Position numbers and translations under genes: made by a program | NCBI GenBank assembly: GCA_011109175.1 | Contig: RDEW01000018.1 | Location: 617,304 to 681,303, forward strand | Origin: Dicyema japonicum | Lineage: Eukaryota; Animalia; Dicyemida | Direction: 5' to 3' | Length of the DNA: 64,000 bases | Shown: positions 1 to 59,418 of the stretch, piece by piece | Layout of the letters: every line of letters starts with the position of its first letter | Numbering within the stretch: the first letter of the stretch is position 1 | Notes under the pieces: generated by a model | Databases searched by the model: none | Seen by the model: the letters and a program-made list of their open reading frames with translations, nothing else | What the model was told of the DNA's origin: nothing

Positions 1-1452
<1,452 letters not shown>

Positions 1453-5749: not shown

Positions 5750-6556
5750 TTATCGCCTTTCCCTCATACGTTCATATTCCTTACGTAATTTACGCTCATA
5801 AGAGGTCTCCCTTGTACGCTTATGACGATCTTCGCATGATGGGGATCTACTATGATCATAAGTATTACCTCCGTCGTCTTCTCTTTTCCTTTGAAGGAGA
5901 TCTACTCCTTTTGTAAGGATAAGGGCCAATCTCCCTAAGTTTTAACTCAATGTCCTTATGAACAGGGACAGGAATGCGAGGGAATATTGTATCAAACCAG
6001 TCCAGTTTGTTTAACCACTGACGAAGCATCTCCCCAATGGACATTTCACAACCTCCGCCAGCCTTAACATCAATAACCTCATTGTCATTCAAATAGGGTT
6101 CAAACCACCCCCAAATAGTCTTAAGTTGAGTATATCTAATGTAACGACAATAAATACCTCAAATACATGAAACCCATAGCTCTAATATACGGAGAGTCTC
6201 TATGAGTGATAATTCCCTTCAGTTGCCGACCAGTCAACTTCATCATGTGTAGCTTGAGTAAAATACAGAATGAACTAGAGATTACTCCACCACAACCAAC
6301 TCCCCTAACCTTAATCATTACAATATATATACAGCGCCACACATTCCACTTGGTGCTCCTGGATTTCTACTGCCCTTTTCCCATGGCTCCAAATGAGTCA
6401 CTTTATTATATATTTCATCTATTATATCACTGTAGGCGTTTATTTCCACAAGATTGTGTTTAAAATATAACGATGACTGAATGTTGGCCAGAATTAGTGG
6501 ATTTATGTTCATTGACTTGTCATTTCCACAGCAGGAAGAGGTTCATTAGGAGGCAT
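5750..6556 (-). CDS. PRPF38B: Pre-mRNA splicing factor 38B; 3 tiny introns; one apparent 1-nt frameshift near the start
   Basis: GNDKSMNINPLILANIQSSLYFK, HLEPWEKGSR, GMCGAVRGVGCGG, DSPYIRAMGFMYLRY, LDWFDTIFPRIPVPV, RS-rich tail. Confidence 0.93.
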
Positions 6557-7740: not shown

Positions 7741-7986
7741 TTTGTGTTAATTTGTTAAATTCGTTTGTTAGCGATAATAAATCGAATAATAACAAAAACT
7801 TGTTGAAAGAATTATAGATTTTTTTGCCAGTCGTTTTTTCTTTCATAGGTTTAATAGCAAATAATTATTCCTTGACAGTTATATCATGGAAAATTAAACG
7901 GGAAAATACACATAGTTTCGCGATATCAATCGTATCCTTAAAACTCAATCGATTGGGATTGACCAGTTGGCCACCCCGCCCTAACA

Positions 7987-8193
7987 AATGTGAGAACTGA
8001 AAGGCTGCCTATGTGAGAATATTATAGTAATGCTCGTAGAATCAGGGTGTCAGAAGGTGCAAGGTTTAGTGGATGCGATTACACAATGATGGTACTGAAA
8101 ATTTCAGACTAGGGTACTCTAACTCCCAGAGTGACTGCCTATAAGATATCTGTAGCGGTCACAGGGAGTGAGCTCCGTCTGAAAATAGCCTTA
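7987..8193 (+). pseudogene. Disrupted copy of the unknown ORF at 9343-9661
   Basis: Same peptide (NARRIRVSEGARFSG..) with in-frame TGA and TAG and loss of the original stop. Confidence 0.7.
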
Positions 8194-8284
8194 AAAATGA
8201 TTAAATTGTTTTGCAATAAAGCAGTGAGAATAAAAGTAAGTCAATTTGCAAATCTGCGTAACCAAACAAATTTTAAAGAAAATA

Positions 8285-8850
8285 TTAAATTTCTAAGGCA
8301 AAAATATCATCAAAGTCTTGTTGAGTTACTTTGAAAATATCGTTGAGGATGGAAATATCCAACAAAGTAACAATTCCGACAATAGAGATAACCTGATTCA
8401 AGAAATACACACTGCTGTATCTCCTCATTTGGATATGCATAATCAACTCCTCGTACATCTGCAAATTGACCTGCTCAATCCTTTTTGGATCTTTAGGATT
8501 GGTCCCCACTACAAATTTAGTTATGAATGTCAACCATATTCACACATCATCATTCTGTAAATCTGGTTGTAGTCAGCAGATATGAGGGACATGATGTTGA
8601 GGAGATCGAATAGTGCTTCAAGGCGAAGCACAAAATCGTAAGGGAAGTTTTTCCAGTTTTGAAAAATTTGGGAAAAACAAATGATCGGCTGAATAAAAAA
8701 AGATTCAAGAAGCAGTATAGCTGAGAATCTCTTAGCAATGATGTTTTTTTTATCCTCCAAGTCCATGTCCATATCCAAAGTTAGTCCATTTTTCAGTCTT
8801 TTGTGGAAAGAATATTTTATTTTCCTGATTACATCTTCATCTAAGATCAT
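8285..8850 (-). CDS. 179-aa protein resembling a nuclear receptor ligand-binding domain, copy 1 (intron 8509-8534)
   Basis: 26-nt GT-AG intron joins the two track ORFs in frame; pattern LEDKKNII..FSAILLL..SADY..D..RIEQ..L..HI..SILNDIF aligns by eye with NR2-type LBDs. Confidence 0.65.
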
Positions 8851-8990
8851 TATCTATCACACTGAAACGTAGATAGTAATTTATGGTAAAACCTTAACGT
8901 TGGTCAACAATGACGTTATAATGACGTCACAATATTGCCACAACAATTCATTTCATAATTTTAAAAAGTTCATTTCTCTATTTAAAAAAA

Positions 8991-9342
8991 NNNNNNNNNN
9001 NNNNNNNNNNNNNNNNNNNNNNNNNNNNNNNNNNNNNNNNNNNNNNNNNNNNNNNNNNNNNNNNNNNNNNNNNNNNNNNNNNNNNNNNNNNNNNNNNNNN
9101 NNNNNNNNNNNNNNNNNNNNNNNNNNNNNNNNNNNNNNNNNNNNNNNNNNNNNNNNNNNNNNNNNNNNNNNNNNNNNNNNNNNNNNNNNNNNNNNNNNNN
9201 NNNNNNNNNNNNNNNNNNNNNNNNNNNNNNNNNNNNNNNNNNNNNNNNNNNNNNNNNNNNNNNNNNNNNNNNNNNNNNNNNNNNNNNNNNNNNNNNNNNN
9301 NNNNNNNNNNNNNNNNNNNNNNNNNNNNNNNNNNNNNNNNNN
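8991..9342. other. Assembly gap (N run)
   Basis: Run of n; single n also near 11128, 13070, 16766 and 18562. Confidence 1.
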
Positions 9343-9661
9343 NGCGGCAAAAAGGTTGCCATTTGTTTGGAATAACCGGGAGTCCCACAGGAGTCAGTAT
9401 AAAGCCCAATCCTCATTAATATCTTTCTCGCTTAACATCCCTCAAACCAATGTGAGAACTGACAGGCTGTCTATGTGCATGCCACTGTATTCTAGTAACG
9501 CTCGTAGAATCAGGGTGTCGGAGGGTGCAAGATTCAGCGGATGGGATTACACAATGGCGGTGCTAAAAATCTCAGATATGGGTACTCTAACTCCCAGAGT
9601 GACTGACTATAAGATATCTGTAGCGGTCACAGGGGGTGAGCTCCGTCTGAAAATAGCCTGA
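9343..9661 (+). CDS. C-terminal about 105 aa of an unknown protein (5' part in gap)
   Basis: Open frame to TGA; differences from the copy at 8.0-8.2 kb are mostly synonymous third-position changes. Confidence 0.65.
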
Positions 9662-9753
9662 AAAATGCTTAAATTATTTTGCAATAAAGCAGTGAGAATA
9701 AGAGTAAGTCGATTTGCAAATATGCGTCACCGAACAAATTTTTAAAGAAAACA

Positions 9754-10319
9754 TTAAATTTCTAAGGCAAAAATATCATCAAAGTCTTGTTGAGTTACTT
9801 TGAAAATATCGTTGAGGATGGAAATATCCAACAAAGTAACAATTCCGACAATAGAGATAACCTGATTCAGGAAATACACACTGCTGTATCTCCTCATTTG
9901 GATATGCATAATCAACTCCTCATAAATCTGTAAATTGACCTGCTCTATCCTTTTTGGATCTTTAGGGTTGGTCCCCACTGTAAATTTAGTTATGAAAGTG
10001 AACCATATTCACACATCATCATTCTGTAAATCTGGTTGTAGTCAGCAGATATGAGGGACATGATGTTGAGGAGATCAAATATTGCTTCAAGGCGAAGCAC
10101 AAAATCGTAAGGGAAGATTTTCCAGTTTTGAAAAATTTGGGAAAAACAAATTATTGGCAGAATAAAAAAAGATTCAAGAAGCAGCATAGCTGAGAATCTC
10201 TGAGCAATGATGGTTTTTTTATCCTCCAAGTCCATGTCCATATCCAAAGTTAGTCCATTTTTCAGTCTTTTGTGGAAAGAATATTTTATTTCCCTGATTA
10301 CTTCTTCATCTAAGATCAT
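9754..10319 (-). CDS. 179-aa protein resembling a nuclear receptor ligand-binding domain, copy 2 (intron 9978-10003)
   Basis: As copy 1; spliced length 540 nt; phase-1 intron at the position conserved in many nuclear receptor genes. Confidence 0.65.
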
Positions 10320-11129
10320 TATCTATCACATTGAAACGTAGATAGTATTTTATGGTAAAACCTTAACGTTGGTCAACAATGACGTTATAATGACGTCACA
10401 ATATTGCCACAACGATTCATTTCATAATTTTAAAAAGTTCATTTCTTTACTTAAAAATCTATTTACTATATTTTTTTAAATAATATAAAACCGCACATTT
10501 TAATGTTAATCCAATTAATCCAGAAATCCTTAATTTATACTTTTTTCATTAAATTATAATAATCTATATTCCACGAACTCTTAATCACATGAGGGCTATC
10601 TGAGGATTATACGATTCTATTATTTAAAGAATAATCTCATGCAAGGACCTGAATACTTACAGTGCCACTATTGGATGCTTTCAAAGGGAAAGTCAAGAGT
10701 GGACTAGATGGGTTACATAATGATTACCGAATCGCTCTCCAACCATAAGAAACTCACCGCAATGGGCAGGAGTTCGCTATACAAGAGTTATTGGAATTCA
10801 CCTACAAATGTTATTGTGTGAACGACAGGATGATAGTCTCGGGAACTTATTTAGCGATTAAAAAAAATATCTTATTTAGGAAAAATTAAAGAAAATGTCT
10901 GTTCGTTTTTTTTGCCGTGTGTAATTAGTAGGGCAATTTAAGTGCTAAAATGAATTTGGAATAATTATTTTTTAACTTTGTTAAAAAAAACATACATTAT
11001 AAATGCTATAAGTGCTATTTTTAATTTTAAATGCTAATTTTTGTTTAAATGCTAATTTAAATTGCAGTTAATAATGTGTTTACGGATTCCGAAACCTGCA
11101 GGTCCAATCGAAAATTTCAAACCGATCGN

Positions 11130-11600
11130 CACGAGGAACCATGACCGTGGTTTCCTGTGTTTCTGCAAAGTACCAGGATCGTCACTCAAATCTCCCTTAT
11201 TCAGGACCTATTCAAAAACACTCGTAAAAAATGTCTCATCCCATTATACAAACAATCAATCAGGACTACGCTTAATTATGCCTTCCCATGTTGGCCCCAC
11301 ATATCACTCACTATGCTAGGAAAACTACAACAGATGCAGAACTTAGCATTGAGATTTATAAAGGGAGGTCTAAAATCTACTCTTGTGACCACCTACGCTA
11401 GGAGACGAACATTACGTAGAAATGCGAGGCTTACAATATCTCCAACAATCACTTGACCCTAAGAAACCTTATCATTAGTCAACCGCACGAATATCAATAT
11501 AATCTTTACTGGCCTCCAAATAACACTCAGGAAAATCTTATCTCCACCAAAAACTGAACCTAGAATAATGAAAGTGTTCATGTCCACTCGCCATATGGAG
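11130..11600 (+). mobile_element. Vingi-like LINE post-RT fragment
   Basis: LYKQSIRTTLNYAFPCWPHIS..KLQQMQNLALRFIKG. Confidence 0.8.
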
Positions 11601-11639
11601 ACAACAAAATTTTGGGCGCAGACCTCCTGATCAAATTGA

Positions 11640-11980
11640 ACTTCAGTCTGTTATATGCAAGAATGTGTTGGGAGATTGTGAATACTCGACATTCCTTTCA
11701 TTGGATCCTAAAAGGGAACAATTATCCAAGACCAGAAGCATCGTTTTGCTTTGTTCAAGACAGAAACATGTTCTACGGAGATCATGATGGGATGCGTAAT
11801 CATTTTAAAAGTGAAAGAGAACCATGATGTCAAAGGATGCTTCACAAAGATAAGAAGACATAACAAAGTCGCCTAATGTCTACACTTCAATTTTTAGGAG
11901 TTTGGCTTTAAAAAACGAGAGAAAGTTAGAAGCTCTTTTAGTGCAGTTTGTTATGATGAACAGCGTTGAATGAGGGTTAA
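11640..11980 (+). mobile_element. R4/Dong-like RLE retrotransposon fragment
   Basis: WILKGNNYPRPEASFCFVQDRNMF, homologous to EAMYTYMQDRNIF near 56.1 kb. Confidence 0.7.
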
Positions 11981-12099
11981 CATCCTCATCATGACTGACA
12001 TAGTCATTTGGGGTAATCCAGACTTGTTCGTCTTTTATAAAATGAGTAATCAAATACTCTTAGTCCTAGTGGAGATAATATCTCCCGAATCTTCAGCAA

Positions 12100-12320
12100 G
12101 AGGACACTTGTGTAATAATTAGTAGTGGGTTCGATTCCAACCCCGCAACCTACAAGGTCAAGGATTCCGTTCTGGTCTGTGTTTTTATATATTACTAAAA
12201 GCGGCAGTTAATCCACCTACCTCAGGAGATGTCTGACTAACATCTAACTCTTCCCTACTCCACCGGAGGGGTTTTCTCATGGCGGATATGAACCGATGCT
12301 TTGAAAGGATGTATTTAAAG
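12100..12320 (+). mobile_element. tRNA-headed SINE remnant related to family B
   Basis: B-box GGGTTCGATTCC 12127-12138, then ctactccaccggaggggttttc shared with family B. Confidence 0.55.
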
Positions 12321-12353
12321 CAAACCTCAATATTTAAAACTAAAACATTCGTT

Positions 12354-12720
12354 CTATCGAAGCTTATACATCACCATATTTATCTTCTTTTCCAAATAAT
12401 CGTCCCAATCTTTAATTTTCTCCTCATTCGCCTTGATTTCCTGCTCAATATGAGACAAATTAAAATTATTGGACAAATCTTGATTCTCAATGCAACATTG
12501 GGAATAGTTGGCTGATATTTTGTCTATGTATTGCTCCATCTCATTTTCAATTTCAGATATTCTTTCAGAATCGAAAACATTGGCAAAAAAATACTTGAAT
12601 GTATAGCAAAGGGATTCGAACTAAGGGCCATCAGACCTCTTGATGTGTTCTCAATTCAGTTAACCGAGTACTCTGCTGTTCTGCTGATTCTTCTGCCCGA
12701 AATTGTAGTGCATGTGTTAA
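12354..12720 (-). CDS. Partial coiled-coil gene of unknown function
   Basis: Charged heptad-like frame SERISEIENEMEQYIDKIS..EQEIKANEEKIKDWDDYLEKK with a possible upstream exon. Confidence 0.35.
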
Positions 12721-12779
12721 GTGCTTAAGAGACTTAAAATAAGTATTTTATTATTGAATTTGTAAGATAAGTATTTAAA

Positions 12780-12900
12780 TAAATAGCTCACATTAATTTT
12801 AGTTAATAAAGTTTTATTTTCTTAAAAAAAATTTTCGGTCCGCGAACCAATTGCTAATTATTAATTTTGGCCTGCAGACCAAAAAGGTTGAGAACCACTG
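12780..12900. mobile_element. End of a Buster/hAT non-autonomous element
   Basis: Terminal GGTTGAGAACCACTG (12886-12900), closely matching the TIR of the 40.8-43.0 kb element. Confidence 0.7.
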
Positions 12901-13600
12901 TCTTAGAATATCGTTTAACGGCGTAGAAACACATTTTGTTACACGGCCGATTCTAAGACTGTACAAAGCATGCTCCTTGTTGGAGTTCTGTAGATGAGAA
13001 AATGATGATTTTGCCATGTGACAGGATAGACTTTTTTCCGTAGGAAGAATTTACATAGTCGTATATTGANCCACTGTCTTAGAATATCGTTTAACGGCGT
13101 AGAAACACATCTTGTTACACGGCTGATTCTAAGACTGTACAAAGCATGCCCCAAGGGGCTCCTTGTTGGAGTTCTGTAGATGAGAAAATGATGATTTTGC
13201 CATGTGACAAAATAGACTTTTTTCCGTAGGAAGAATTTACATAGTCGTATATTGAGAGGAAGTGGATGAAACAATCCTCTGGGCTGGTTGTGGGTTTTCG
13301 ACAAACATTGAATCATATTAACTATCATCCTGACCGTGCAGGTTCTGATAGGCCATTCTCTAAACTCTTTCAATTTTGAACTGGATGTTATTCGAATCAA
13401 GATCCAAGTGCGTCAGATACTTCCTTCTGTTTTTTTCAGAGATGACTGCGTCACTTTGTCCATGCTCACGAGAAGTAGACAGGGATCTTTATTCATAATA
13501 AAGCTAAGTAGATATTTCGTGAAATTGAGGAACACCACCACCTCGACCTTCCACCAACTAAGCGCCTGCCTAACTGGCATTACTGATAATTAACAATTTT
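12901..13600 (-). mobile_element. CRE-type RT fragment, partly duplicated around a single n
   Basis: QQG.PLGHALYSLRISRVTRCVSTPLN matches QQGDPLGPLLFALGIHGVSACLKSPLN near 39 kb. Confidence 0.7.
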
Positions 13601-13713
13601 TTATTCTTATTTTCACTTACTGTGGAACAAGGTAGGAATAAAGGGCTTAAAACCTAAATTGTCAGATTTACCGCCATAAAAGAAAATAGCTAAATTTAAA
13701 AATTAATTATTAG

Positions 13714-15024
13714 TTAGTTTTTGAGTTGATATCCAAAATTAGGTCGAGGAGGTGGTGTCCCTACCAATTAAATTTCGGTCAAACTAGCAAAAGTGCTTGA
13801 TATTTTCCGTCCTTCCACCTCTGACACATCATTTAGGGCATCTGTGGCATCCTTTCTTGTGTTGAAGTTTACGAATCCATAACTGAGAATATCACTACAT
13901 TTTTACCCTCGTGACCTTCCTGTTTCGTGGTCCAATATTATGGCTGCAGAAACGGCATTCGGGAACGCAGCCTTGAGTCCTTCTCTAGTCGTTAGGGGAG
14001 ACAGGTATTTGACGAAAATGGAGACCCCCTGTTTTCTTTCCGGTGTCACTGGTTCATTTGTGGCTATAATCGATAGTCTTCTATTCTTAAAAGGTTTCCC
14101 GATCTGTTCTAATGTTGCTGGTAACCCTCCGGCGGGGACCACGACTTTTGCGTACCTAGGCATATTTAACCATTATAACTTGTTTTTTAGCCGTATTCTA
14201 CTCAAAACAATTCCTTTATCCTTGAAGAAATCACTTATCTCCTGAATGGTCACATTGGGCTGTAAATTGCCAATTACGACTGTAACCGGGGAATCTTGCT
14301 GTAATTATTTTATATTACCGTTTCTTTCGTCAACCATAATGCCTTCATTTCTTCCATTTGCAGAATTTTGACTATCACTTCTTTGTGCTTTGTTAGGTGC
14401 ATTATTTGACGAGAATCTTTTCGACTTCTTTTGAAAGTTCCTTGAAATGACTGTTTTTTGCTTTTTGGAAGTGTTTTTTGAAGCGGTTTTATCTGATGAG
14501 TCTATTTTGTAAGAAGTTCTATTACCTGAATCACTGCTTAAGGAGTCTTCCTTGGGCTCTTTTACTTTTTGTGACGTCGGGGGAGTTCTTTTTTTAATGG
14601 CGGGTTCATTCGAAAAATCTATCATTCATGAAGGGTGATTACCGGAATCAGTGCTTGATGAATCCTCCTTCTCCTTTTCAACTTGTGACGGTCTCTGATG
14701 AGCTCCGTTTTTAGTGACAGGGTCTTTCTTTGAGTCTTCAGTAATAATCAGATCATCACCAGGGTTGCTTGAGCTCGATGAAGAATCGGAATCGGGTTGA
14801 TTCACTTCAATCGATTCGCTCGAGGTTTTATCCGTCTGTTTTTCTGAATTCTGATCTTTTTGAATTTTCACTATTCCAATATTCGTACACCTAAAAGGTT
14901 TTCTATCTGAGTTTTTTCTCCTTTTTTTCTTGATAATAATTCGAAAGACTGCAATAAGTAATCACTTACGTGTTGACTCGGAAGAATCTGAGTCATCAGT
15001 TATAGAAACTGTGCGAGGCTTCAT
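13714..15024 (-). CDS. Nucleolin-like RNA-binding protein: S/D/K-rich N-terminus plus two RRMs; multiple tiny introns
   Basis: TVVIGNLQPNVTIQEISDFFK (RNP2), SIFVKYLS..DHETGRSRG|YGFVNF (RNP1); introns of about 20-24 nt restore the frame. Confidence 0.8.
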
Positions 15025-25868: not shown

Positions 25869-27885
25869 ATGTTATTTTCTCTTTTTAGTTTATTAACTGT
25901 ATTTTGATGGTTAACAATTTAATTTTTAGATTTTACTTTTTTAACATAACAATCCAAAATGGTTATAGTTCATAGTGAATTTTAGAAAAAATCTTAACGT
26001 GCTACTACACGAATTGGGCAGTTTACAGACGAGGGAATGCCAAATACGATGCCAAGTACATGTATCCATACCTCTGTACACATATAATCTATGCTTTTGC
26101 AAATATTGACGCTCAGACTTTAACTCCAGTCCCAACTGATCCCTGGTCTGATTTGCCAGGTAATGAAAAATGACTTAAATAGACGGACTTGACAATTTTA
26201 GAAAAGTCACTTCACTAAAGAACATCAATCCAAATTTAAAAGTCCTTTTGTCAGTCGGGGGATGGGAAAGACTTTTTAGTGAATTCCAATTAATCTCAAG
26301 CAATGAGGAGAACAGCAGATTATTCGCCAAAAATACAAAAAATTATATCAAAAAATATAATTTTGATGGATTTGACGTTGACTGGGAATATCCAAATGAT
26401 AAGGAAAATACACTCGAATGATGAAAGTCATAAATGGAAATAATCTTAGGCTTTGAGTGAAGAATTCAAACGGGATAGTTCAGAAACTTATTTGCTGACT
26501 GCTGCAGTATCTGCTGGAATAGGGAGAGCTTCAGTTTCCTATGACATTCCGAGTGTTTCCAAGTAACTGTGTTTACTGAACCGAAATAGATACCTCGATT
26601 ACATTAACATCATGACATATGATTTTTTTGGTCAATTTTCACGCGTGGTTGGTCATCACAGTGGATTATATTGTCAGAATGAAAATGATCGAGACTGCAC
26701 AGTATCTATATTTCTTAGTTTAGGATTTTGCTGTGAGATATTGGCACAGTCAGGGAACTCCACTGTCGAAGATCCTTATTGGGATCCCTACATATGCTCA
26801 GGGATTTAAAACTAGAACAAAAAATCCACGTGTTGGAGATGTAAAAGTTGGGGGAACTCCAATGGGGCATATTCTGTACAACAATGGGATTTTATCTTAT
26901 CTCGAAGTTTTATAATTTAATTAAATTTAGTATTGTAACGAAGGATACAAAGATGTTTGGGATGACATCCAACAAGTGGCACATGGAGAGAAGGACTATT
27001 ATTGGCTCGGATACGAGACCATCAGAAGCATTCATGAGAAGGTTGATCAAATTTTAAATCTCAGGCAAATTATGTCAAAGACAACGGATTGGCTGGAATG
27101 TTTGTGTGGACCTTAGATTTTGACGACTTTAGCGGAAAAGAATGTCACAACGGAAAAAGTCCTCTAATTGGAGCAATCCACAAGGAACTCGATATTTATC
27201 CTGGAATTGTAATTTTTTGTCTAAATCAAGAATTGGGAGACAAATTTGAAGACTGGGTCAACTTATGATGTAACCACATCGATTAAATTAAGTGTATCTC
27301 CCAACACTGTGGATGATAAAAGTAAATCCAGTATATAATTTAGATAAAATCTGCAAAAGTATCGGATTTGTTGCGCTTTATGGATGCACGAAATACATGA
27401 ATTGTGCACAAATTGGAAGTAAAGGATTTGTCCAGGCCTGTGGAAGTGGCTTACTCTTTGACGTCAAAACAAGCACGTGCAATTGGAACTTTTTGGTGAA
27501 GTGTGATAGCTCAGAATCTGGAACAAACTCGAATACTGAAAAAGGTTAAAAATTGTGTCATTTTGAGAAACCACTACAACAACTACGACTACGGAAAAGA
27601 CAACGATTAGAAGGTCAACTAAAAACGAGCCTACCACAGTGAAGACAACTACAACCACTGAGTCTAAGAGTGATGGTGATGTCTTTGATTCTGGTTAAAT
27701 TATGATTTAATGAAGCTGGGAATTGTAATAAAATTGGATATTTTGCTGTTGACGGGTGCAAGAAATTTGTTATCTGTGGATACATTGGTCAGATAGCTTA
27801 TCCTGTTAATTGTCCAGGAAACTTGATTTTTGATGAAACTCATAAATACTGCAATTATCCAAACATGGTTGAATGCAAAGTCTAA
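25869..27885 (+). CDS. GH18 chitinase with Thr-rich linker and two CBM14 chitin-binding domains; many tiny introns; apparent 1-nt frameshifts
   Basis: CYYTNWAVYR, LCTHIIYAFA, KVLLSVGGW, catalytic FDGFDVDWEYP, INIMTYDF, GMFVWTLDFDDF; two Cys-patterned C-terminal domains. Confidence 0.92.
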
Positions 27886-37489: not shown

Positions 37490-40400
37490 AAAGTATGTCT
37501 GAAAAACACGAAAATTGCAACCTAAATGACTTCTCTCTTTTAACATTCAATGTCAAAGGACTCTCTAGTGCATGGAAAAGAAAAAAAACTTTGTGAAGAC
37601 CTTTCAAAATACAAGATATCAATCGGATGTCTCCAAGAGACAAAAATATCGAAGGAGTTTGAAATCTTATACAAGAGAACATGAACTGAGCCAATATCAT
37701 GTTAGATTATTGATTCAAGATGGAGGCTCTTTGGACACATACTCCGCCACGATATGGGGACCCCAGCCAACATAGCAATGGAGGAGTATTTTGTCTTAAA
37801 AGCTTCTCGTTTCCGCGGCCGGCCGAGGACAACACTGCCGGTTATTCTAGATGAAGATCTCAGGATACGCTACGGAACATGGCAACGGATCGAAAAAGAT
37901 GGGGGACGTTAATTAGATTGAGTGCTTTTCATTATTATAAGGAAAAAGGAAAAAGAATAGTTAATTTTAATTCAGCTGTTGGGAGATGCACAAGCTATTC
38001 CCACGGACAACAGCCAACGAGAGCCTCTCCTTGAGCCATCTCGTCTCACGAAGATCACCAGTTTTGTCAGTTAGTAGTTTTCCCAAATGGTTCAGGAACT
38101 TCAGCGTTTTAGGGCCAAAGTTCCCCGAAGTTTCAATCGCGACAGGTGCGAAAATGTACCTGTCGCTGATATCCGAATATTTAGCATTTTTTACTTCCTC
38201 TGCTTGAGAAGAAGGTCTGCCCGGTGAATTATTTTTTTTGCTTGGGGCGAAAGAACAGACACAGGTCACATCCCATACAAGGTTTCGCCCTCGCTCAAAA
38301 GGAAAGGAGGTCAGGGCGTCTTCCGTTGTCAAATAGACCAGTCGGTTCGATCCGGCAACGGAATCCAGCCGATTCTAATGCCCTCTTAATGATGCCGTTC
38401 ATTGCCGAATGTCGAGAAGATCTGCCAATTTTGCTCCGGCATGAGAGGAGGTGGAGACCCAGTTCGTCCGATAGACAGCCACATTTGCACCTCGATTTGG
38501 TGCAAACAGGCAATCCGAGGTGTAGACATACAGCTGTACGAAGTGAGTCATCATCCAACAATCCACCAACTTCTTGACATGGGTAAACCCCAAGCCAAGA
38601 TCCATCAACCGCCTCCCTCGAATTTTGAAAACAATCCAGGCGATGTCCATAGAGCCGGCTGACTAGGTTGGATGCCAGAGCATTCCATCTATGGATCATC
38701 CAAGACGATTGTTGGTCTGGATTACGCGGCTCGCTAAGCCCTTCACTCCGCCACACGTCCATCTATTCAACCAAGTCATTGGACAGTTTCCGAGATGGAA
38801 GCTTTGAAAGAATTGAGTCCACTTGGTTTTTGCATGAAAGTTTTGAGGCAAAATACGCCGGGCCAGCAATTTGGCAGGGAGTAGTAAGCAAACGACGCAC
38901 GTCCTCCAAAACTGTATCTGGATGTCCACCAATGATTCCGTCATCCAAATACCATAAATTTAAAGGTGATTTTAAGCATGCGGATACTCCATGGATCCCC
39001 AAAGCAAAGAGAAGAGGTCCAAGTGGGTCGCCTTGTTGAACACCAGTTCGTGATTTAATGATGGCATCGTGGAAAACCAATGATGATGGATTAGAATATG
39101 AAAGGCGTACAATCTCCCAAATATGTGGTAAATTTTTTTGGCATAACTCCAATAAATGATCTCTCCTTATGGAATTAAATGCGTTCTTAAGATCTACTTT
39201 GCAGACAACAACGTCCTCTTTGCATTGGGACGACGACGTGAAAAAACTCCTCACTGCGTGGACACAAGCCTCTGCACCGCCACGAACTCCAACGCCCATC
39301 TGTATAGGACTGAAACTAGGAAGTAATCTTTGAACCCCAGAAAAGCAAGCGACTTTAGCTGCAAGTCTCCTAAACACGTTTCCAATAGCAATCGGTCTGA
39401 CACCGCCGTCAGGCTTTCGGAGAGCAACAAGATTAGCAGAAAATAACATATCTCGACCGAAAGGAGACAAACATCCAGAAAGAATTTTGTTGATCAGTTC
39501 GCAAATAACATTCGAAAGATCCTTTCCGACAGATCCCATCATTGGAGCTGTGAGATCACGTAGGTGACCGGGTCTCAAGCCATCGATACCACCTCCACTA
39601 CTAGGACGAAATGAACGCAGGGAGGTGATTATATCTTCGTTAGAGGCGAGCAATTGTTCCTCGTGGAAAGGTTTTATAGTTCTCAAGTCTTCGGGGGATC
39701 CGGGGTGTTTTTCTCGTAAAGACAGGAGCGTTTCAGGGTGTTTTTAAGTGTCCCAGGATCACAAACTAATAGCCGTACAGCACCACGAATATCGCCTTCC
39801 ATAAGTTTCATCCTGATTAGTTTCTTTATTAAGCGAAGTTCCTCCGTTTTCGGACGCTTTGAACTCCGGGGTGCAATTTGAGTTGATTTTAAAGCAGTAA
39901 GTGACATTTTATGTTCATTTAGAAACAGTCTAACTCTCTTTTTGATATTCGTTGCGAGAGAAGTGGATGCTTCCGTTGGTCTTCTGATCCCAAGAGTGAG
40001 TGACGGGAAAAGGAAAAATTTGACCCATTCCGAAGAAACGGCGTCAGGCTTCAAAACATCCTTGATGGTGGAGATCAGAGCCTCGGCAACAGCAGTTCTC
40101 GCACCTTTGGGAATCTTCACAGGAATGGTCACGTCCGAGCGCGTTCGAGAGATCAGTTTCAGAGCTTCATCAGGATCTGCTACGAGAGTAGGGTCAAACG
40201 GTTCAATGCAAGCAGTTTGATTGGAGTAAGAAAAAGCAGTACCAGATGAAAGGCATGGTTGGCAGTTCCATTTTGTCATATTGATAAGAGCCTTCTTGGA
40301 CACTCCTACGCAAGACCTGTGATACCATCTTGAACATGCTGCACAAGCGATCATCCTTTTTCTCATATTAGTTACGTTGCACTTTTCACATGGGTAGGTG

Positions 40401-40585
40401 TTTTCCTTCCTTTCTTCATTAGTCTTCATTGTTGTGTCTGTATTTTTCGTAACAACCACGTCGACAACACAACACCACACCACGTTTTTTTTTTGTACAA
40501 GTTAATTAGATTGTTAACTTTTCGTGTTGCACATGCTTTGTCATGATCTTGGCATCGCGTACGTGCCTATAATAATAATAATTTT
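37490..40585 (+). mobile_element. Internally deleted RTE-like element (37490-37920 and 40501-40585) split by the CRE insertion
   Basis: TFNVKGL..CLQETK; RGRPRTTLP..DRKRWGTLIRL continues after 40513 to a stop and a (TAA)n tail. Confidence 0.75.
37921..40500 (-). mobile_element. CRE-clade RLE retrotransposon (PHD finger, RT, Zn knuckle, PD-(D/E)xK nuclease) with 13-bp TSD; disrupted
   Basis: PHD CEKC..CAACSRWYHRSC..WNCQPC; VRPIAIGNVFRRLAAK, DLKNAFNSI, GVQQGDPLGP, WYLDDG; RRPD..WDVT..AEEVKNAKY..PVAIETSG; GTTAATTAGATTG at 37908-37920 and 40501-40513. Confidence 0.92.
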
Positions 40586-47937: not shown

Positions 47938-49512
47938 ATGTTTTTCGTGTTTTTTTCAGTATTTCCGTTAATATTGTCTGATTATTATGAAGAAATAATA
48001 ATAAAACCTATTTCGAGAGCAGAAACACTATTTACCTATAATTTTGTATTTGAAAATCTTAAATACGATTACTTTCTTTTCCCCACTAAAAAATATTTTT
48101 TTGGAGAATAATATAAGATTCTTGCATTTGGGGATGTCAACGGGAGTCCTAGAGTATAGACATGAACCCCTTTCAATGCAATCCAACACAGAATTGAAAA
48201 TAGACTTCATAAGGTAATCCTATTAATCACTTTCAGTAATTCCACTGATAATAAACGGAAATTTGATAAAACAGTTGCTGCACTGTCGACTGTTTTGTCT
48301 GGATCTTTTTTGAATATGAAATACTCAGATTGTCTATTTTTCAACATTTCGGACGTATTTCACTATAAAGTGGAGAATCTCTGTATCATCTATGATATGA
48401 CCTACAGTCTCTGCTGTGAGAATATCTTTACTTTAGTCAAACAGCTTCCTTGCAGTGACAAAGTATTCGTACGGTTCATTTTAGGCTGGGATAGCTCAAC
48501 TTGTAGACAAAATCAAAATTCTAACTGCTAATTTCCATTCCATTGACTTGGTGTATTATGAGAGTTCTGATGGAACTCATTCACTAAATATTTCCCTCTC
48601 TTTCACAAACAGCTATAGTTTCTCTATATTATACAATCTTTAGGTTCAAGTGACTTTGTTTATTTGAACAGTGTATGCCCAGCCTCATCAAAATCAAGGA
48701 TAATTGTGTTCGACTCGAATGTAACCCGAAAATAATATTTTAGAATAATTATACAATCTGTGATTTTGCTGACATAGATACTTGTACTTCATCTTATTTT
48801 AAGGGCATAACGGATAACCCACCAGAATTTAAAAATGTCAAAATTTCCCGATTTTTACGTGGTATTACATTTTATAACTGAAATAATCAGGGTTGCATTG
48901 AATAAGCGAGTCATTGATACCGAATTTTATAACCCCACCGACCAGGATGTCGAAGTTTTTTATTATGATTACTTTCCTTCAAACGTTGACGCCTATTACA
49001 GCTCCCTGAGATTTTTTAACAAAAACGGGAACTTGTCTACTAAAATGTTAAAATTTCTACCGAGGACATTGAATTATCCTTTTACTATTCGACAGGTCAA
49101 TGTGGTTGTCCCGTGTTATGAAAAAGTTAATTTGTTGATAACGGTGATGCCGAGAATGTCTCACTCCACAACTGATATAGCCGGATTCGACGGAGATTTC
49201 AGAATTGGTGGAGGGTTTGGAGCTGTCGTGAATCCGAATAATCGAAAAGTGTTATATTATGTTCGTTCCAACATAATTACACTCAAATCATTAGTCCACG
49301 ATGATTTTACTGCTACTTCAAATCTTTTTATTATATTATTCATTTATGGGATGCTCCTTTGTGGAATTGCTAAAATTACATCTTTCCAATATACACGGGC
49401 TCAGTCAGAGGAGAAGAAAAGTGCAATAATTTTAGCCAAAATTCTTAAGTTATCTCCCTATATCGGATTTCTTGTGATTGTTTACCGCGTTTTTGATTTT
49501 GATTTGTTCTAA
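47938..49512 (+). CDS. PIGT: Divergent GPI transamidase subunit PIG-T/Gpi16; tiny introns; apparent 1-nt frameshift near 48080
   Basis: Signal peptide, YYEEIIIKP, YFLFP, CCENIFTLVKQLPC (cf. CTENLTPWKKLLPC), TEFYNP..V.YYDYFP..YYSSL, DDF..N then TM helices. Confidence 0.75.
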
Positions 49513-50080: not shown

Positions 50081-51660
50081 TTAATTTTCATCGGTAAGCA
50101 TCAAAAGTGGGGTTTCCAGTAAATTTTTGCACTTTTTAAGAAAATTGCATGCAGTAAATCCGTCAATTACACGATGATCTCCCGAAAATACCATTGTAGA
50201 ATACGATCTCTCGACAATTTCTCCATTTATGTTTTTTTCGAGATTTTTCTAAAATTTAAATTATTTTTAACTAAAACCTGAGTTCTTCCAAACGAAAGTA
50301 TTGCTGACTGCGGTGGTACAATAATGGAATTCCCCATCAAACCCCCAATCTTACAAGGTTAATAAAATTCACTAGTACAGGAGCAGTATTAGAAATTGTG
50401 AATGTCCCTCCAGAGAGATCGTCGACTGTAAATTTGTTGGCCTCTCCTTTTTCGATAATTCTTGAAGACATCTTGAAATTTGTACTAAATTTTTAGATTG
50501 GACGTTATGGACGACTGGAACGATCAATCCAGTTGGGGTATTCATAGCCACTCCTATGTTGTGTTGATTCTAAAATGAATAGTTTATATAATTTAAACGT
50601 TAAAAACGATATTTTCGTGTTTTCCATCAAGCATTGAGTTAACAATTGGGTATTCATTGAGAGCCATGGAACAAGCCTTTGAGAAATTAGCCTCAAAATA
50701 CAACCTTTATCAATAAACTGGTCACTGTTAGACGAATTGAGTATTTTTCATTAGCGTAAGCTTTAAGCGATCTAAAAGAAGCCATCATGTCATCCGCATT
50801 GATATTTTCGTGGACGTAAAAATGTGGAATTTTAATCGATTCTGTCATTAAGTCGTACATTTTTTTTCTAGATCCACGTAGAGGTAAATTTTCTAGTTTG
50901 TCTGCTACACATGTGGTTTGGGCAGAAGCAGTTTCACCTTCTACAGTCTGAAATGAATAAGTTAACTCATATAGTTTAGAACATCTTCATTCAGTACCCG
51001 ACCGTTTTTCCCTGTTCCAACAACGTCATCTAAATTTATCTGAAACATTTCAAGAGTATTACGTTATTTTCCTTGGCAAGTTTTCGAACCGCTGGAGTCG
51101 CAGCTGCAAACTGTTTATGCAATTTTGGTGTTTCTGAATTGGGTATATCTGATTCTGAGGAAGTTTCCGACTTTTGAGATGAATCTGATTTATCTTCTGC
51201 ATCGTCTTCAATTTCAATATCGACAAGAGGCAGTCCAACCAGAGCCAAATCTTCAACGTCGTAGTAGATTTTTCTTATAGTTCCGGAATACCGTGATGAT
51301 ATTGTCACGTTAGCTTTATCACTGGACACATCACAAATATTTTCGAATTCGTTGACTTTCTGGCCGACCACAACATACCTGCGGTTATATAATTAAAATT
51401 AATTATTAATGATGTAGAAAATATGGAAAGTCAAAATTAAAGTTTGACACAAAAAAATATAAAATATTATTCATAACTTACCACTCCTTAACTGTAACTT
51501 CTTTAATTCCTTCCCCAATATCCGCCAGTTTATATGGAAATATTCTTCCAAAATAAACTTAATTTAAGTAACTAAGCATATACCTGAACTTGTTCCAAAA
51601 TGCCTTAAACTAAAAAAGTGTAAATTAAAATATTCACTACTGCTTAGTAAAATGAAACAT
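50081..51660 (-). CDS. DBT: Branched-chain alpha-keto acid dehydrogenase E2 (dihydrolipoamide acyltransferase), mitochondrial
   Basis: [18 protein letters not shown], lipoyl site [33 protein letters not shown], catalytic DHRVIDG; tiny introns plus one of about 100 nt. Confidence 0.92.
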
Positions 51661-57099: not shown

Positions 57100-59418
57100 G
57101 GGTTGTAGGAAAAAAAGTCAAGCGGAAAAAAGTCAAGTCGTCTTTTTTTAGTTATATCGCATTTTTTATACTAGAAGTCCCGTAAGCGGAAAAAAGGTCA
57201 AGCGGAAAAAAAGTTTTTTTTTTTTGAAAATTTTTCCCTTATAAATTTTCGAAATTTAGCGCAAAACGGAAAAAAAGTCAAGTCCGTTAATTTCGTTACG
57301 GACTTGACTTTTTTTCCGTTTATAAAATAAGATTTTTATTCATGATCGTTTCATTTTAAAGTAAGCGAGTTTAGAATAACAAATTATTTAAATAGTTAAT
57401 TTTGGCTAATGTTAATGAATTAAAATGTCCCGCCACAACTAAAACTACACGTGGTGGAAATAAATTCTAAAAATAAAACAGATTTTTTCTACTTTTAAAA
57501 TTTTTTAAAATGTTATAAACATATGATTTTTATTTAACGAGAATCAAGGGATTATTTAATGTGAATCAAAAGAATATTTAATATTCCATGCAATTGCTTT
57601 TAGGGCTTCTCCTACTGTTTTTTTCCGTCCTGGCGATCCAGACATATATTTAAAAGCCTTTTTTGTCTATCAATCGTTTTTTTATTTGTTCTTGTTGAAA
57701 TTCTTTTTCCAAAGGAATCCTGGTCAATAATAGTTTTCGTCATTTTTTCTTCTTTTTGGAATGACGATATAATATTCCATATCGATGGATGACGATATCC
57801 CGTCAAATTGTATAATTTATTGTTCCACCCTTCACAATAGTTATTTGTTCTTTGTTTATTATTGAGTGTAGCTTCATACACATTCCATAAATTTGGAGGA
57901 AACAATGGAGCAATGTGCTGTATTCTAACAGCTAAGGGTTTTCTCGATCATTTAAGCAACGATAATAACCGCGAACATATGTTCTATCAAAATAATCTAA
58001 TATATATTTTGAATCTGGAACATTTTCTGGCATATTATTCATTAGGAATTCTATTCCTTCTTCCATATCTTGAATGGGTAAAAATGCAAGAGCGTCTATC
58101 ATTGCGCAAAAAATGTTAAAATTAATATTTTCTTTATATTGTTTTACTAGATGCAATTCTTGAATTTTTCTCCAGGTTGACTGTCTTAGATGATAATAAC
58201 ATCCTCTAATATGTATTCGTCTCCCAAATACTGCAAGGACAGCTCGAAATACCGAATCTTCAAAGTCTGCCATAATAGTTTCAAGACAAAATTCCAAATT
58301 CAAATTATGAATTGCATTTTGAATAGCCTCAAAAAATTCTTCGTAAATCTTTCGTGATTTAGAAGGTAATATTCCATAAATAACTGTAATTGCACTGGCA
58401 TTGAACTGAATCCTGATAAAATAGATTTGCTTGAAGATACATGGTGCCATGGAGAAATTTCCATCCATATACCATGATTTTGAATTCGCCAATAACGTTA
58501 TATTAGTTTTGGTGCTGAATATCAATATTCTATCGGTTCTTCTATGATTATCATAAATTAAAAAATTTTCTGAATATGGACGAAGAGTTATAGATAAGAA
58601 CGATGGAATATCTCCGAGATCGAAAATATTTTTTGGAATATGTAGAGACAAGGGTTGATTCCTTAGTGTTCGCTTGAAAGAATCTACAGAAGGGAGAATA
58701 ATTCTGGTTGCTGTTTCACATTGAGACACAACCTTTGAATAGATTTGTAAGAAATTTTCTTGACTCGTTTTAGCAATAAGTTTTGCTTCGTTGAACAACT
58801 TCATCAGTTTTATTTGACTTTCGTCAAATTCGTGAATGTGAGAAATTCTTCTTCGGGAAATTCAAAATTATGATCTGTTCTTAGTCTTCCTCTGCATCCT
58901 TGTGAAGATTTTTTACACATTTAAAAATTATATAGTTTTTTGTCCGAGTGCTTTGTATACATAAACCCTTAAAACAAATTTTCTTTCCTCCATTGTTAGT
59001 TGATATTATCTCCATTTTGTCTCTTATTTTTGGGCAAGCATAATATTTAAAATACGCCTAATTATAACCTTAAAATCCGTATTGATTAAGTCAAAAAGAT
59101 TAAACCAGTGAAAAAAGTCAAGGTCAAAAAGATTAAACCAAAGCGAAAAAAGTTAAGTCAATTTTATTATTACCTTGAAATTCTTAAATTGATTTAGTCA
59201 AAGCGATTATACCAAATCCGTTTTGCGCTAAATTTCGAAAATTTATAAGGGAAAAATTTTCAAAAATGGAAAAAAAGTCAAGCGGAAAAAAAGTCAAGTA
59301 TTGAAAAAATTTTTAAAAATTAAAAGATGCTAGTAGTATCACAAAAATGCGATATAAACTAAAAAAAGACACTTGACTTTTTTTCCGCTTACGGACTTGA
59401 CTTTTTTTCCCGCACTCC
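57100..59418 (-). mobile_element. MULE (Mutator) DNA transposon with FLYWCH + DDE transposase, frameshifted; long repeat-rich TIRs
   Basis: WYMDGNF, IMADFE, GCYYHLRQS, RTNNYCEGWNN; inverted ends built from GGAAAAAAGTCAAG units; no matching TSD seen. Confidence 0.93.

What the first reader, a model, noticed from the sequence alone, without database searches (positions are those of the whole stretch)
8285..10319. Duplicated nuclear-receptor-like genes with a ligand-binding domain but no visible DNA-binding domain
Seen: two intact 179-aa genes, each with one 26-nt phase-1 intron. Inference: the protein aligns by eye to NR2-type LBDs (DLEDKKTII..FSAMLLL vs L..DQ..LL..WSELFVL; SADY vs SAEY; D..RIEQ vs D..HIES; SILNDIF vs SVIEQLF), without gaps over about 88 C-terminal residues of remembered COUP-TF. 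The intron falls on the codon aligned to the Asp after KAIVLFTS, where I recall a conserved phase-1 intron in NR2F/RXR genes. In-frame stops directly precede the ATG and no C4 zinc finger is visible upstream of copy 2 before transposon debris begins. LBD-only receptors are known (NR0B), but such a divergent duplicated version in a micro-intron genome could be an undescribed lipid/hormone sensor or dominant-negative regulator.
Basis: partly seen in the sequence, partly recalled or inferred. Interest (0 to 1): 0.75.

Follow-up and report, generated by a model that had tools for sequence, protein, structure and literature searches.

The report
Duplicated bare nuclear-receptor core gene
An animal genome with tiny introns carries two 95%-identical neighbouring genes whose predicted 179-residue protein is likely the stripped-down ligand-binding half of a nuclear hormone receptor, with no DNA-binding finger found nearby; it would act by pairing with other receptors, as known truncated receptors do, so it is an extreme example of a known design.

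Summary
Observation confirmed: two open 179-codon genes (minus strand), each with one 26-nt phase-1 intron, in a ~1.0-kb repeat 94.6% identical; pN/pS 0.26. Other introns in the window are 21-25 nt. The receptor reading holds for the C-terminal ~110 residues. A blind ESM Atlas search with exon 2 returned Hormone_recep clusters (0.95; 28 of 30 hits). The best gapless match to NR2F ligand-binding domains puts the intron-split codon exactly on the Asp where 85 of 99 NR2F loci have a phase-1 intron. DAX-1's single intron lies at the same site by residue count. Against: Pfam, PDB, a 1.84-billion-protein search, an NR2F HMM and HHalign found nothing, single-exon folds were uninformative, and the first 70 residues match only by eye. 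No C4 zinc finger was found in the window by a splice-aware search with working controls. There is no RNA evidence. Best reading: a DNA-binding-less, helix 3-12 receptor core acting as a dimer partner or repressor. NR0B membership is not shown (no N-terminal LxxLL boxes). Such receptors are known (NR0B, snail, tandem spider-mite HR96-LBD-1a/b), and this scan noted two in other genomes. Host is probably a dicyemid or myxobolid.

The parts
8535..8850 (-). Copy 1 exon 1 (codons 1-105 and first base of 106; predicted LBD helices 3-8)
   Evidence: register with NR2F helix 7-8
8509..8534 (-). Copy 1 26-nt phase-1 GT-AG intron
   Evidence: window introns are 21-25 nt; same site as the NR2F intron
8285..8508 (-). 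Copy 1 exon 2 (predicted helices 9-12 and stop)
   Evidence: 98.6% protein identity to copy 2 exon 2
10004..10319 (-). Copy 2 exon 1
   Evidence: no database hit alone
9978..10003 (-). Copy 2 26-nt phase-1 GT-AG intron
9754..9977 (-). Copy 2 exon 2 (Hormone_recep-like by language-model features)
   Evidence: score 0.95, 200 of 256 features shared, 28 of 30 hits
7979..8988 (.). Repeat unit 1 (3' flank, gene, 138 bp of 5' flank up to the gap)
9439..10457 (.). Repeat unit 2; run contigs suggest the shared unit continues to about 10650
8991..9343 (.). Assembly gap (353 N); probably longer in the sequenced sample and not bridged by any listed contig
10380..10398 (.). Paired CRE/ATF-like sites (TGACGT-N5-TGACGTCA), 61-79 bp upstream of the ATG; possible promoter element (motif name recalled)
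   Evidence: 2 matches in the window, one per copy; 0 in 100 shuffles
8911..8929 (.). The same paired sites upstream of copy 1

Best explanation
The two genes likely encode a very divergent nuclear-receptor ligand-binding domain (predicted helices 3-12 only) with no DNA-binding domain found in the window, and the protein would work as a ligand-independent partner that docks onto DNA-bound receptors and likely represses them. Shown: gene structure, duplication, excess of synonymous change, no C4 finger in the window. Strongly inferred: LBD origin of residues ~70-179. Inferred by eye only: residues 1-70 as helices 3-5, so that the protein starts at helix 3. Inferred from known receptors: exon 2 supplies the helix 9-11 dimer surface and a C-terminal amphipathic helix 12; DAX-1, SHP, TLX, PNR and TR4 also lack helices 1-2 and sit in an autorepressed, ligand-free state that recruits corepressors. 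The recent duplication would raise dosage.
For: ESM Atlas, exon 2: top cluster 0.95, 200 of 256 features, 28 of 30 hits in the PF00104 set (36% of the top cluster's members carry it), recognition 2611. The unanchored best gapless diagonal against 12 NR2F LBDs puts the NR2F Asp on codon 106 in 10-11 of 12. Exon 2 alone and residues 69-106 alone each pick that same offset. The 90-residue block was matched by 32 of 1000 shuffles. 85 of 99 NR2F loci have a phase-1 GT at that Asp, 13 read through, 1 other. Human NR0B1's single intron is at c.1168/1169, phase 1 in codon 390 of 470; sea bass has it at residues 221-222 of 301; the equivalent Asp of zebrafish NR0B1 is the 80th residue from the end (my count). 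pN/pS 0.26, P = 0.008. Splice-aware DBD search of 10320-13760 scored 29.0, against 29.3-51.3 in 16 background windows and 100-113 for controls keeping Cys plus 30% of codons. Nothing above 39.1 in 22 minus-strand tiles. No zf-C4 among 31 upstream CxxC frames. Loss of helices 1-2 and autorepression in the repressor receptors: PMC4335298, passages.
Against: No Pfam family for either exon at E up to 10. No PDB hit. 0 hits among 1.84 billion proteins for exon 1; none. Exon 1 Atlas best 0.78, no family. A 12-sequence NR2F HMM gave 0.5 bits, reached by 203 of 2000 shuffles; local alignments had z of -1.5 to 1.1. HHalign was reached by 86 and 76 of 100 shuffles. Identity is only 12-14 of 109. Each half-block alone is not significant (275 and 226 of 1000), and residues 1-70 pick another offset (859 of 1000). 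The aromatic helix 3-5 signature is eroded. No partner, ligand state or expression was tested.
Confidence: 0.5

Rival explanations
1. An LBD-only ligand sensor: it binds a host lipid or xenobiotic and switches a DNA-binding partner on, like spider-mite HR96-LBD-1a/1b.
For: A tandem LBD-only pair controls detoxification genes in Tetranychus urticae (PMC10435515, passages). 8 of the 9 amino-acid differences between the copies lie in exon 1, the predicted pocket-forming half.
Against: The protein is about 11 residues shorter than NR2F between the helix 4 and helix 8 motifs (58 versus 69) and seems to start at helix 3, as ligand-free repressors do. The intron site is shared with NR2F and NR0B1; I did not test it for HR96.
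Confidence: 0.15
2. These are the 3' exons of an ordinary full-length receptor whose zinc-finger exon lies in the gap, beyond the window, or is too diverged to see; copy 1 would be a partial duplicate.
For: The gap 8991-9343 is not bridged. There is an AG just before the ATG, and splice chains can add up to 16 residues. In Dicyema japonicum Pfam finds 8 zf-C4 genes but only 4 Hormone_recep genes (supplement table row), so some full receptors there may have unrecognisable LBDs.
Against: No DBD signal on the minus strand of the window, with working controls. The next gene upstream on the same strand, an RRM gene, ends near 13770. Introns of the one gene mapped here are 21-25 nt. None of the 5 extension chains per copy has CxxC. 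Both copies are under apparent purifying selection.
Confidence: 0.12
3. One locus, two haplotypes set side by side by the assembler (an LBD-only gene, but not duplicated).
For: The copies flank an N gap, and four single-N joins elsewhere in the window include three inside 93-98% direct repeats (13070, 16766, 18562). No listed contig joins the two copies.
Against: In the deepest run the two versions have depth 354.5 and 329.8, against 367.8 for the PRP38 contig, and the shared exon 2 contig has 678. Ratios of shared contig to PRP38 in the four runs are 1.57, 1.84, 1.58 and 1.39 (one sample, and contig depth is only a rough guide). The 3' flanks part at 7979 and 9439.
Confidence: 0.13
4. An unrelated helical orphan protein; the receptor likeness is chance plus helical periodicity.
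For: All alignment-based database searches were empty; gapped tests against NR2F were not significant. Two stretches are very hydrophobic (19-residue mean about 2.0).
Against: The blind Atlas hit is to the very family named in advance; the tool puts a first hit of 0.95 for shuffled proteins at about 1 in 100, for any family. Two separate segments choose the same register, and the intron falls on the exact base of the NR2F intron.
Confidence: 0.1

Closest known systems
NR0B (DAX-1/NR0B1, SHP/NR0B2, annelid Nr0b1/2)
   Same: LBD without C4 fingers; DAX-1 genes have two exons with one phase-1 intron at the same LBD site by residue count; DAX-1 and SHP lack helices 1-2; the group exists in spiralians.
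   Different: No N-terminal extension and no LxxLL before residue 80; 179 residues against 301-470 for fish and human DAX-1; far more diverged; orthology untested.
NR2F (COUP-TF/seven-up) LBD
   Same: Gapless register over about 110 C-terminal residues and the same intron base.
   Different: No DBD; 12-14 identities in 109; helix 3-5 signature eroded; gapped tests not significant. NR2F was the only group I could compare directly, so nearest-group status is not shown.
Tetranychus urticae HR96-LBD-1a/1b
   Same: Tandem direct duplicates that encode an LBD and no DBD; shown by RNAi to control gene expression in trans (PMC10435515, passages).
   Different: HR96 (NR1) origin, recognisable LBD, part of a 47-gene expansion, 82-85% identical to each other against 95% (170 of 179) here.
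Lymnaea stagnalis LBD-only genes
   Same: Three genes without a DBD, one most like COUP-TF (PMC11589774, passages).
   Different: Recognised by ordinary domain searches; no function reported in the passages read.

Membership tests
Nuclear receptor LBD (PF00104) | Profile match to Hormone_recep | tested here: inconclusive
   Each exon alone: no Pfam hit. The whole spliced protein was not scanned against Pfam; against a 12-sequence NR2F HMM it was not significant.
Nuclear receptor LBD (PF00104) | Language-model likeness to LBD clusters | tested here: met
   Exon 2: 0.95, 200 of 256 features, 28 of 30 hits. Exon 1: no family, 0.78.
Nuclear receptor LBD (PF00104) | Three-layer helical sandwich fold | tested here: inconclusive
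   Single-exon models without alignments: exon 1 pLDDT 56, three helices, generic matches only; exon 2 one long helix. The whole protein was not folded.
NR2F / NR0B gene structure | Phase-1 intron in the codon after helix 8 | tested here: met
   NR2F, direct; DAX-1, by residue count. Shared by both groups, so not diagnostic.
Canonical NR2 receptor | Two C4 zinc fingers N-terminal to the LBD | tested here: not met
   None in the 64-kb window; the gap and DNA beyond the window were not seen.
NR0B | LBD without a C4 DNA-binding domain | tested here: met
   As above, within the window; no cDNA.
NR0B | N-terminal region with LxxLL-like NR boxes | tested here: not met
   No LxxLL in copy 2 and one at residue 80 (predicted helix 7) in copy 1; possible upstream extensions add at most 16 residues. 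NR boxes in DAX-1.
NR0B | Clusters with DAX-1/SHP in an LBD phylogeny | not testable with these tools
   No NR0B or other non-NR2F receptor sequences were available to scripts; two scans for more receptors gave none.
NR0B | Binds and represses other nuclear receptors | not testable with these tools
   Needs experiment.

The most novel reading that the evidence does not exclude
A minimal nuclear receptor: a drastically reduced parasite (probably a dicyemid) has pared a receptor, possibly its NR0B orthologue, down to a 179-residue helix 3-12 core with no DNA-binding domain and no NR boxes, kept it under selection and doubled it. It is invisible to Pfam and BLAST-type searches, so receptor inventories of such parasites are undercounts, and this core would define the smallest working LBD.
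Probability: 0.3. Interest if true: 0.65.

Novelty: new variant of a known kind. Interest (0 to 1): 0.42.

Why it matters
If right, it is a natural minimal version of the receptor ligand-binding domain, useful for asking what the domain needs in order to dimerise and repress. It also shows that receptor counts in fast-evolving parasites miss genes that only intron position and language-model features reveal. The principle (receptors without a DNA-binding domain, also as tandem pairs) is already in print, which caps the surprise.

Full report
Observation. The minus strand holds two genes, 8850-8285 and 10319-9754. Removing a 26-nt GT-AG phase-1 intron gives 179 codons in each. Introns of 35, 44 and 53 nt (and 59 nt in copy 2) also open the frame, but the seven MCM4 introns at the start of the window, mapped against two homologues with the same result, are 21-25 nt. 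The genes lie in a direct repeat, 7979-8988 and 9439-10457, with 955 of 1009 aligned bases identical and a 353-N gap between them. The coding copies differ at 17 codons, 8 synonymous and 9 not; pN/pS is 0.26 and the excess of synonymous change has P = 0.008. No third copy is in the window.

Are there really two copies? Four public runs of one sample hold the stretch. They show no intron-skipping joints, so they behave as DNA. Where the copies differ, two contigs appear: in the deepest run at depth 354.5 and 329.8, against 367.8 for the neighbouring PRP38 contig. Where they are alike there is one contig at 678. Ratios in the three shallow runs are 1.39-1.58. The tool warns that contig depth is no copy number, so this is a hint for two loci, not proof. 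16 of 17 listed variants that I checked in the gene and its near 5' flank are copy 1 letters. No indel inside the coding region was among those listed (33 variant rows and 10 indel rows were not shown). Two versions continue to about 10650, some 335 bp upstream of the ATG, where repeats begin. No listed contig bridges the gap.

Organism. MCM4 is animal-like (120 listed of 4394 hits), and the window is rich in LINE reverse transcriptase and endonuclease pieces. PMC13644364 (parts 1-2 of 3 read) reports introns under 30 nt in animals only from myxobolid myxozoans and dicyemids. PMC6736024 (passages) gives 36.7% GC, 49% repeats and many LINEs for Dicyema japonicum; PMC6543705 (passages) gives a 27-nt median intron for Dicyema sp. 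No myxobolid MCM4 was among the hits. My estimate, an inference only: dicyemid about 65%, myxobolid about 30%.

Is it a receptor LBD? Ordinary searches say nothing: Pfam, PDB, 1.84 billion representatives for exon 1 and two word-based searches. These saw single exons only; the whole protein was not scanned or folded, which leaves the full-domain match open. I fetched 120 NR2F-type loci from metagenomes; 112 gave the motif in a frame and 12 long ones served as references. Gapped tests against them are not significant. Three results point the other way. First, a blind ESM Atlas search with exon 2 returned Hormone_recep clusters: score 0.95, 200 of 256 features, 28 of 30 hits; exon 1 returned no family. 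Second, the best gapless diagonal, found without anchors, puts the NR2F Asp after helix 8 on codon 106 in 10-11 of 12 references at three block lengths and in both copies. Against a mean profile the 90-residue block was reached by 32 of 1000 shuffles, and exon 2 alone and residues 69-106 alone each chose the same offset, though neither is significant by score (275 and 226 of 1000). Third, 85 of 99 NR2F loci that hold the helix 8 motif in the same frame have a phase-1 GT in that Asp codon, 13 read through (some are transcripts) and 1 is shifted (the loci need not be independent species). Codon 106 is the codon that the 26-nt intron splits, also in phase 1. Residues 1-70 match helices 3-5 only by eye and fail the test (859 of 1000). 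AlphaFold2 on single exons was uninformative. I put LBD origin at about 0.9.

Is the DNA-binding domain absent? A splice-aware search allowing 18-40-nt introns scored 29.0 in 10320-13760, within background (29.3-51.3, 16 windows), while controls that kept the cysteines and 30% of other codons scored 100-113, and 44-122 at 20%. All 22 minus-strand tiles scored 27-39; the plus-strand maximum of 51.3 is a chitin-binding domain. Pfam found no zf-C4 in 31 of the 35 minus-strand CxxC frames (4 that are not upstream were left out). Splice chains of up to three introns give 5 alternative starts per copy, at most 16 added residues, none with CxxC. The next gene on this strand, an RRM gene, ends near 13770. 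Paired TGACGT/TGACGTCA sites lie 61-79 bp upstream of both ATGs and nowhere else in the window, as a promoter might have; the CRE name is recalled. The search profile came from NR2F fingers only, the gap is unseen, and there is no cDNA.

Mechanism. PMC4335298 (passages) states that DAX-1, SHP, TR4, PNR and probably TLX lack helices 1-2, are ligand-free and autorepressed, and recruit corepressors through helix 12 or the empty helix 1 pocket. The protein here seems to begin at helix 3, keeps the helix 9-11 region that is the usual dimer surface (established knowledge) and ends in a hydrophobic-xx-hydrophobic-hydrophobic motif at 171-175. The simplest reading is a receptor core that cannot bind DNA and modulates receptors that can, most likely as a repressor (0.5 overall). 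A ligand-sensing version is the main functional rival. D. japonicum has 8 zf-C4 and 4 Hormone_recep genes by Pfam (supplement row), so partners would exist if the host is a dicyemid; the same numbers warn that full receptors there can have unrecognisable LBDs.

Comparison. Human NR0B1 has two exons joined at c.1168/1169, phase 1 of codon 390 of 470 (PMC10265046, passages); sea bass DAX1 has its one intron at residues 221-222 of 301 (PMC1891300, passages); in zebrafish NR0B1 the Asp after helix 8 is the 80th residue from the end (supplement of PMC13012086, my count). The gene thus has the DAX-1 layout, and NR0B exists in annelids (PMC13012086, passages; its SI Appendix PDF with the full tree could not be read) and oysters (PMC7827873, passages). 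But NR2F shares the intron, the N-terminal LxxLL region is missing and no tree was possible, so I do not file it as NR0B. LBD-only receptors are also reported from a snail (PMC11589774, passages) and, as 47 genes with a functional tandem pair, from spider mites (PMC10435515, passages). Searches for 'myxozoa' or 'Dicyema' with 'nuclear receptor' (listings only, plus passages of PMC9887271 and PMC8363021) showed no description of such a gene; most subscription papers are not covered.

Verdict. A real, selected, probably duplicated gene; very likely a minimal LBD-only nuclear receptor; a new variant of a known kind. Interest 0.42.

Noticed in passing
window 1-1450 (+): MCM4 gene with seven introns of 21-25 nt; the spliced part is open and 63-66% identical to the best animal MCM4 matches.
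   Followed up: yes
window 5865-6545 (-): PRP38-family gene in short exons (Pfam PF03371); used as the single-copy depth reference.
   Followed up: partly
window 26567-27885 (+): GH18 chitinase with two CBM14 chitin-binding domains joined by a Thr-rich linker.
   Followed up: partly
window 13768-14961 (-): Gene with RRM pieces and a Ser/Lys-rich N-terminal part, nucleolin-like by eye.
   Followed up: partly
window 51036-51392 (-): Lipoyl and E3-binding domains of a 2-oxoacid dehydrogenase E2 subunit, so mitochondrial-type metabolism is kept.
   Followed up: no
window 38763-40501 (-): Retroelement with a PHD finger upstream of a reverse transcriptase, split over two frames.
   Followed up: no
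window 13070, 16766, 18562: Single N at the joint of 93-98% identical direct repeats; likely false duplications at contig joins.
   Followed up: no
window 57932-58861 (-), flanked by inverted repeats 57126-57270 / 59217-59383: MULE transposase piece inside inverted repeats.
   Followed up: no
window 48811-49512 (+): 233-codon open frame with a hydrophobic C-terminal part and no convincing Pfam match (best E 0.011).
   Followed up: no
window 10420-10310 (-) and 8951-8841 (-): Both copies allow an upstream ATG with two short introns (33 and 20 nt) that would add 16 residues; untested alternative 5' end.
   Followed up: partly
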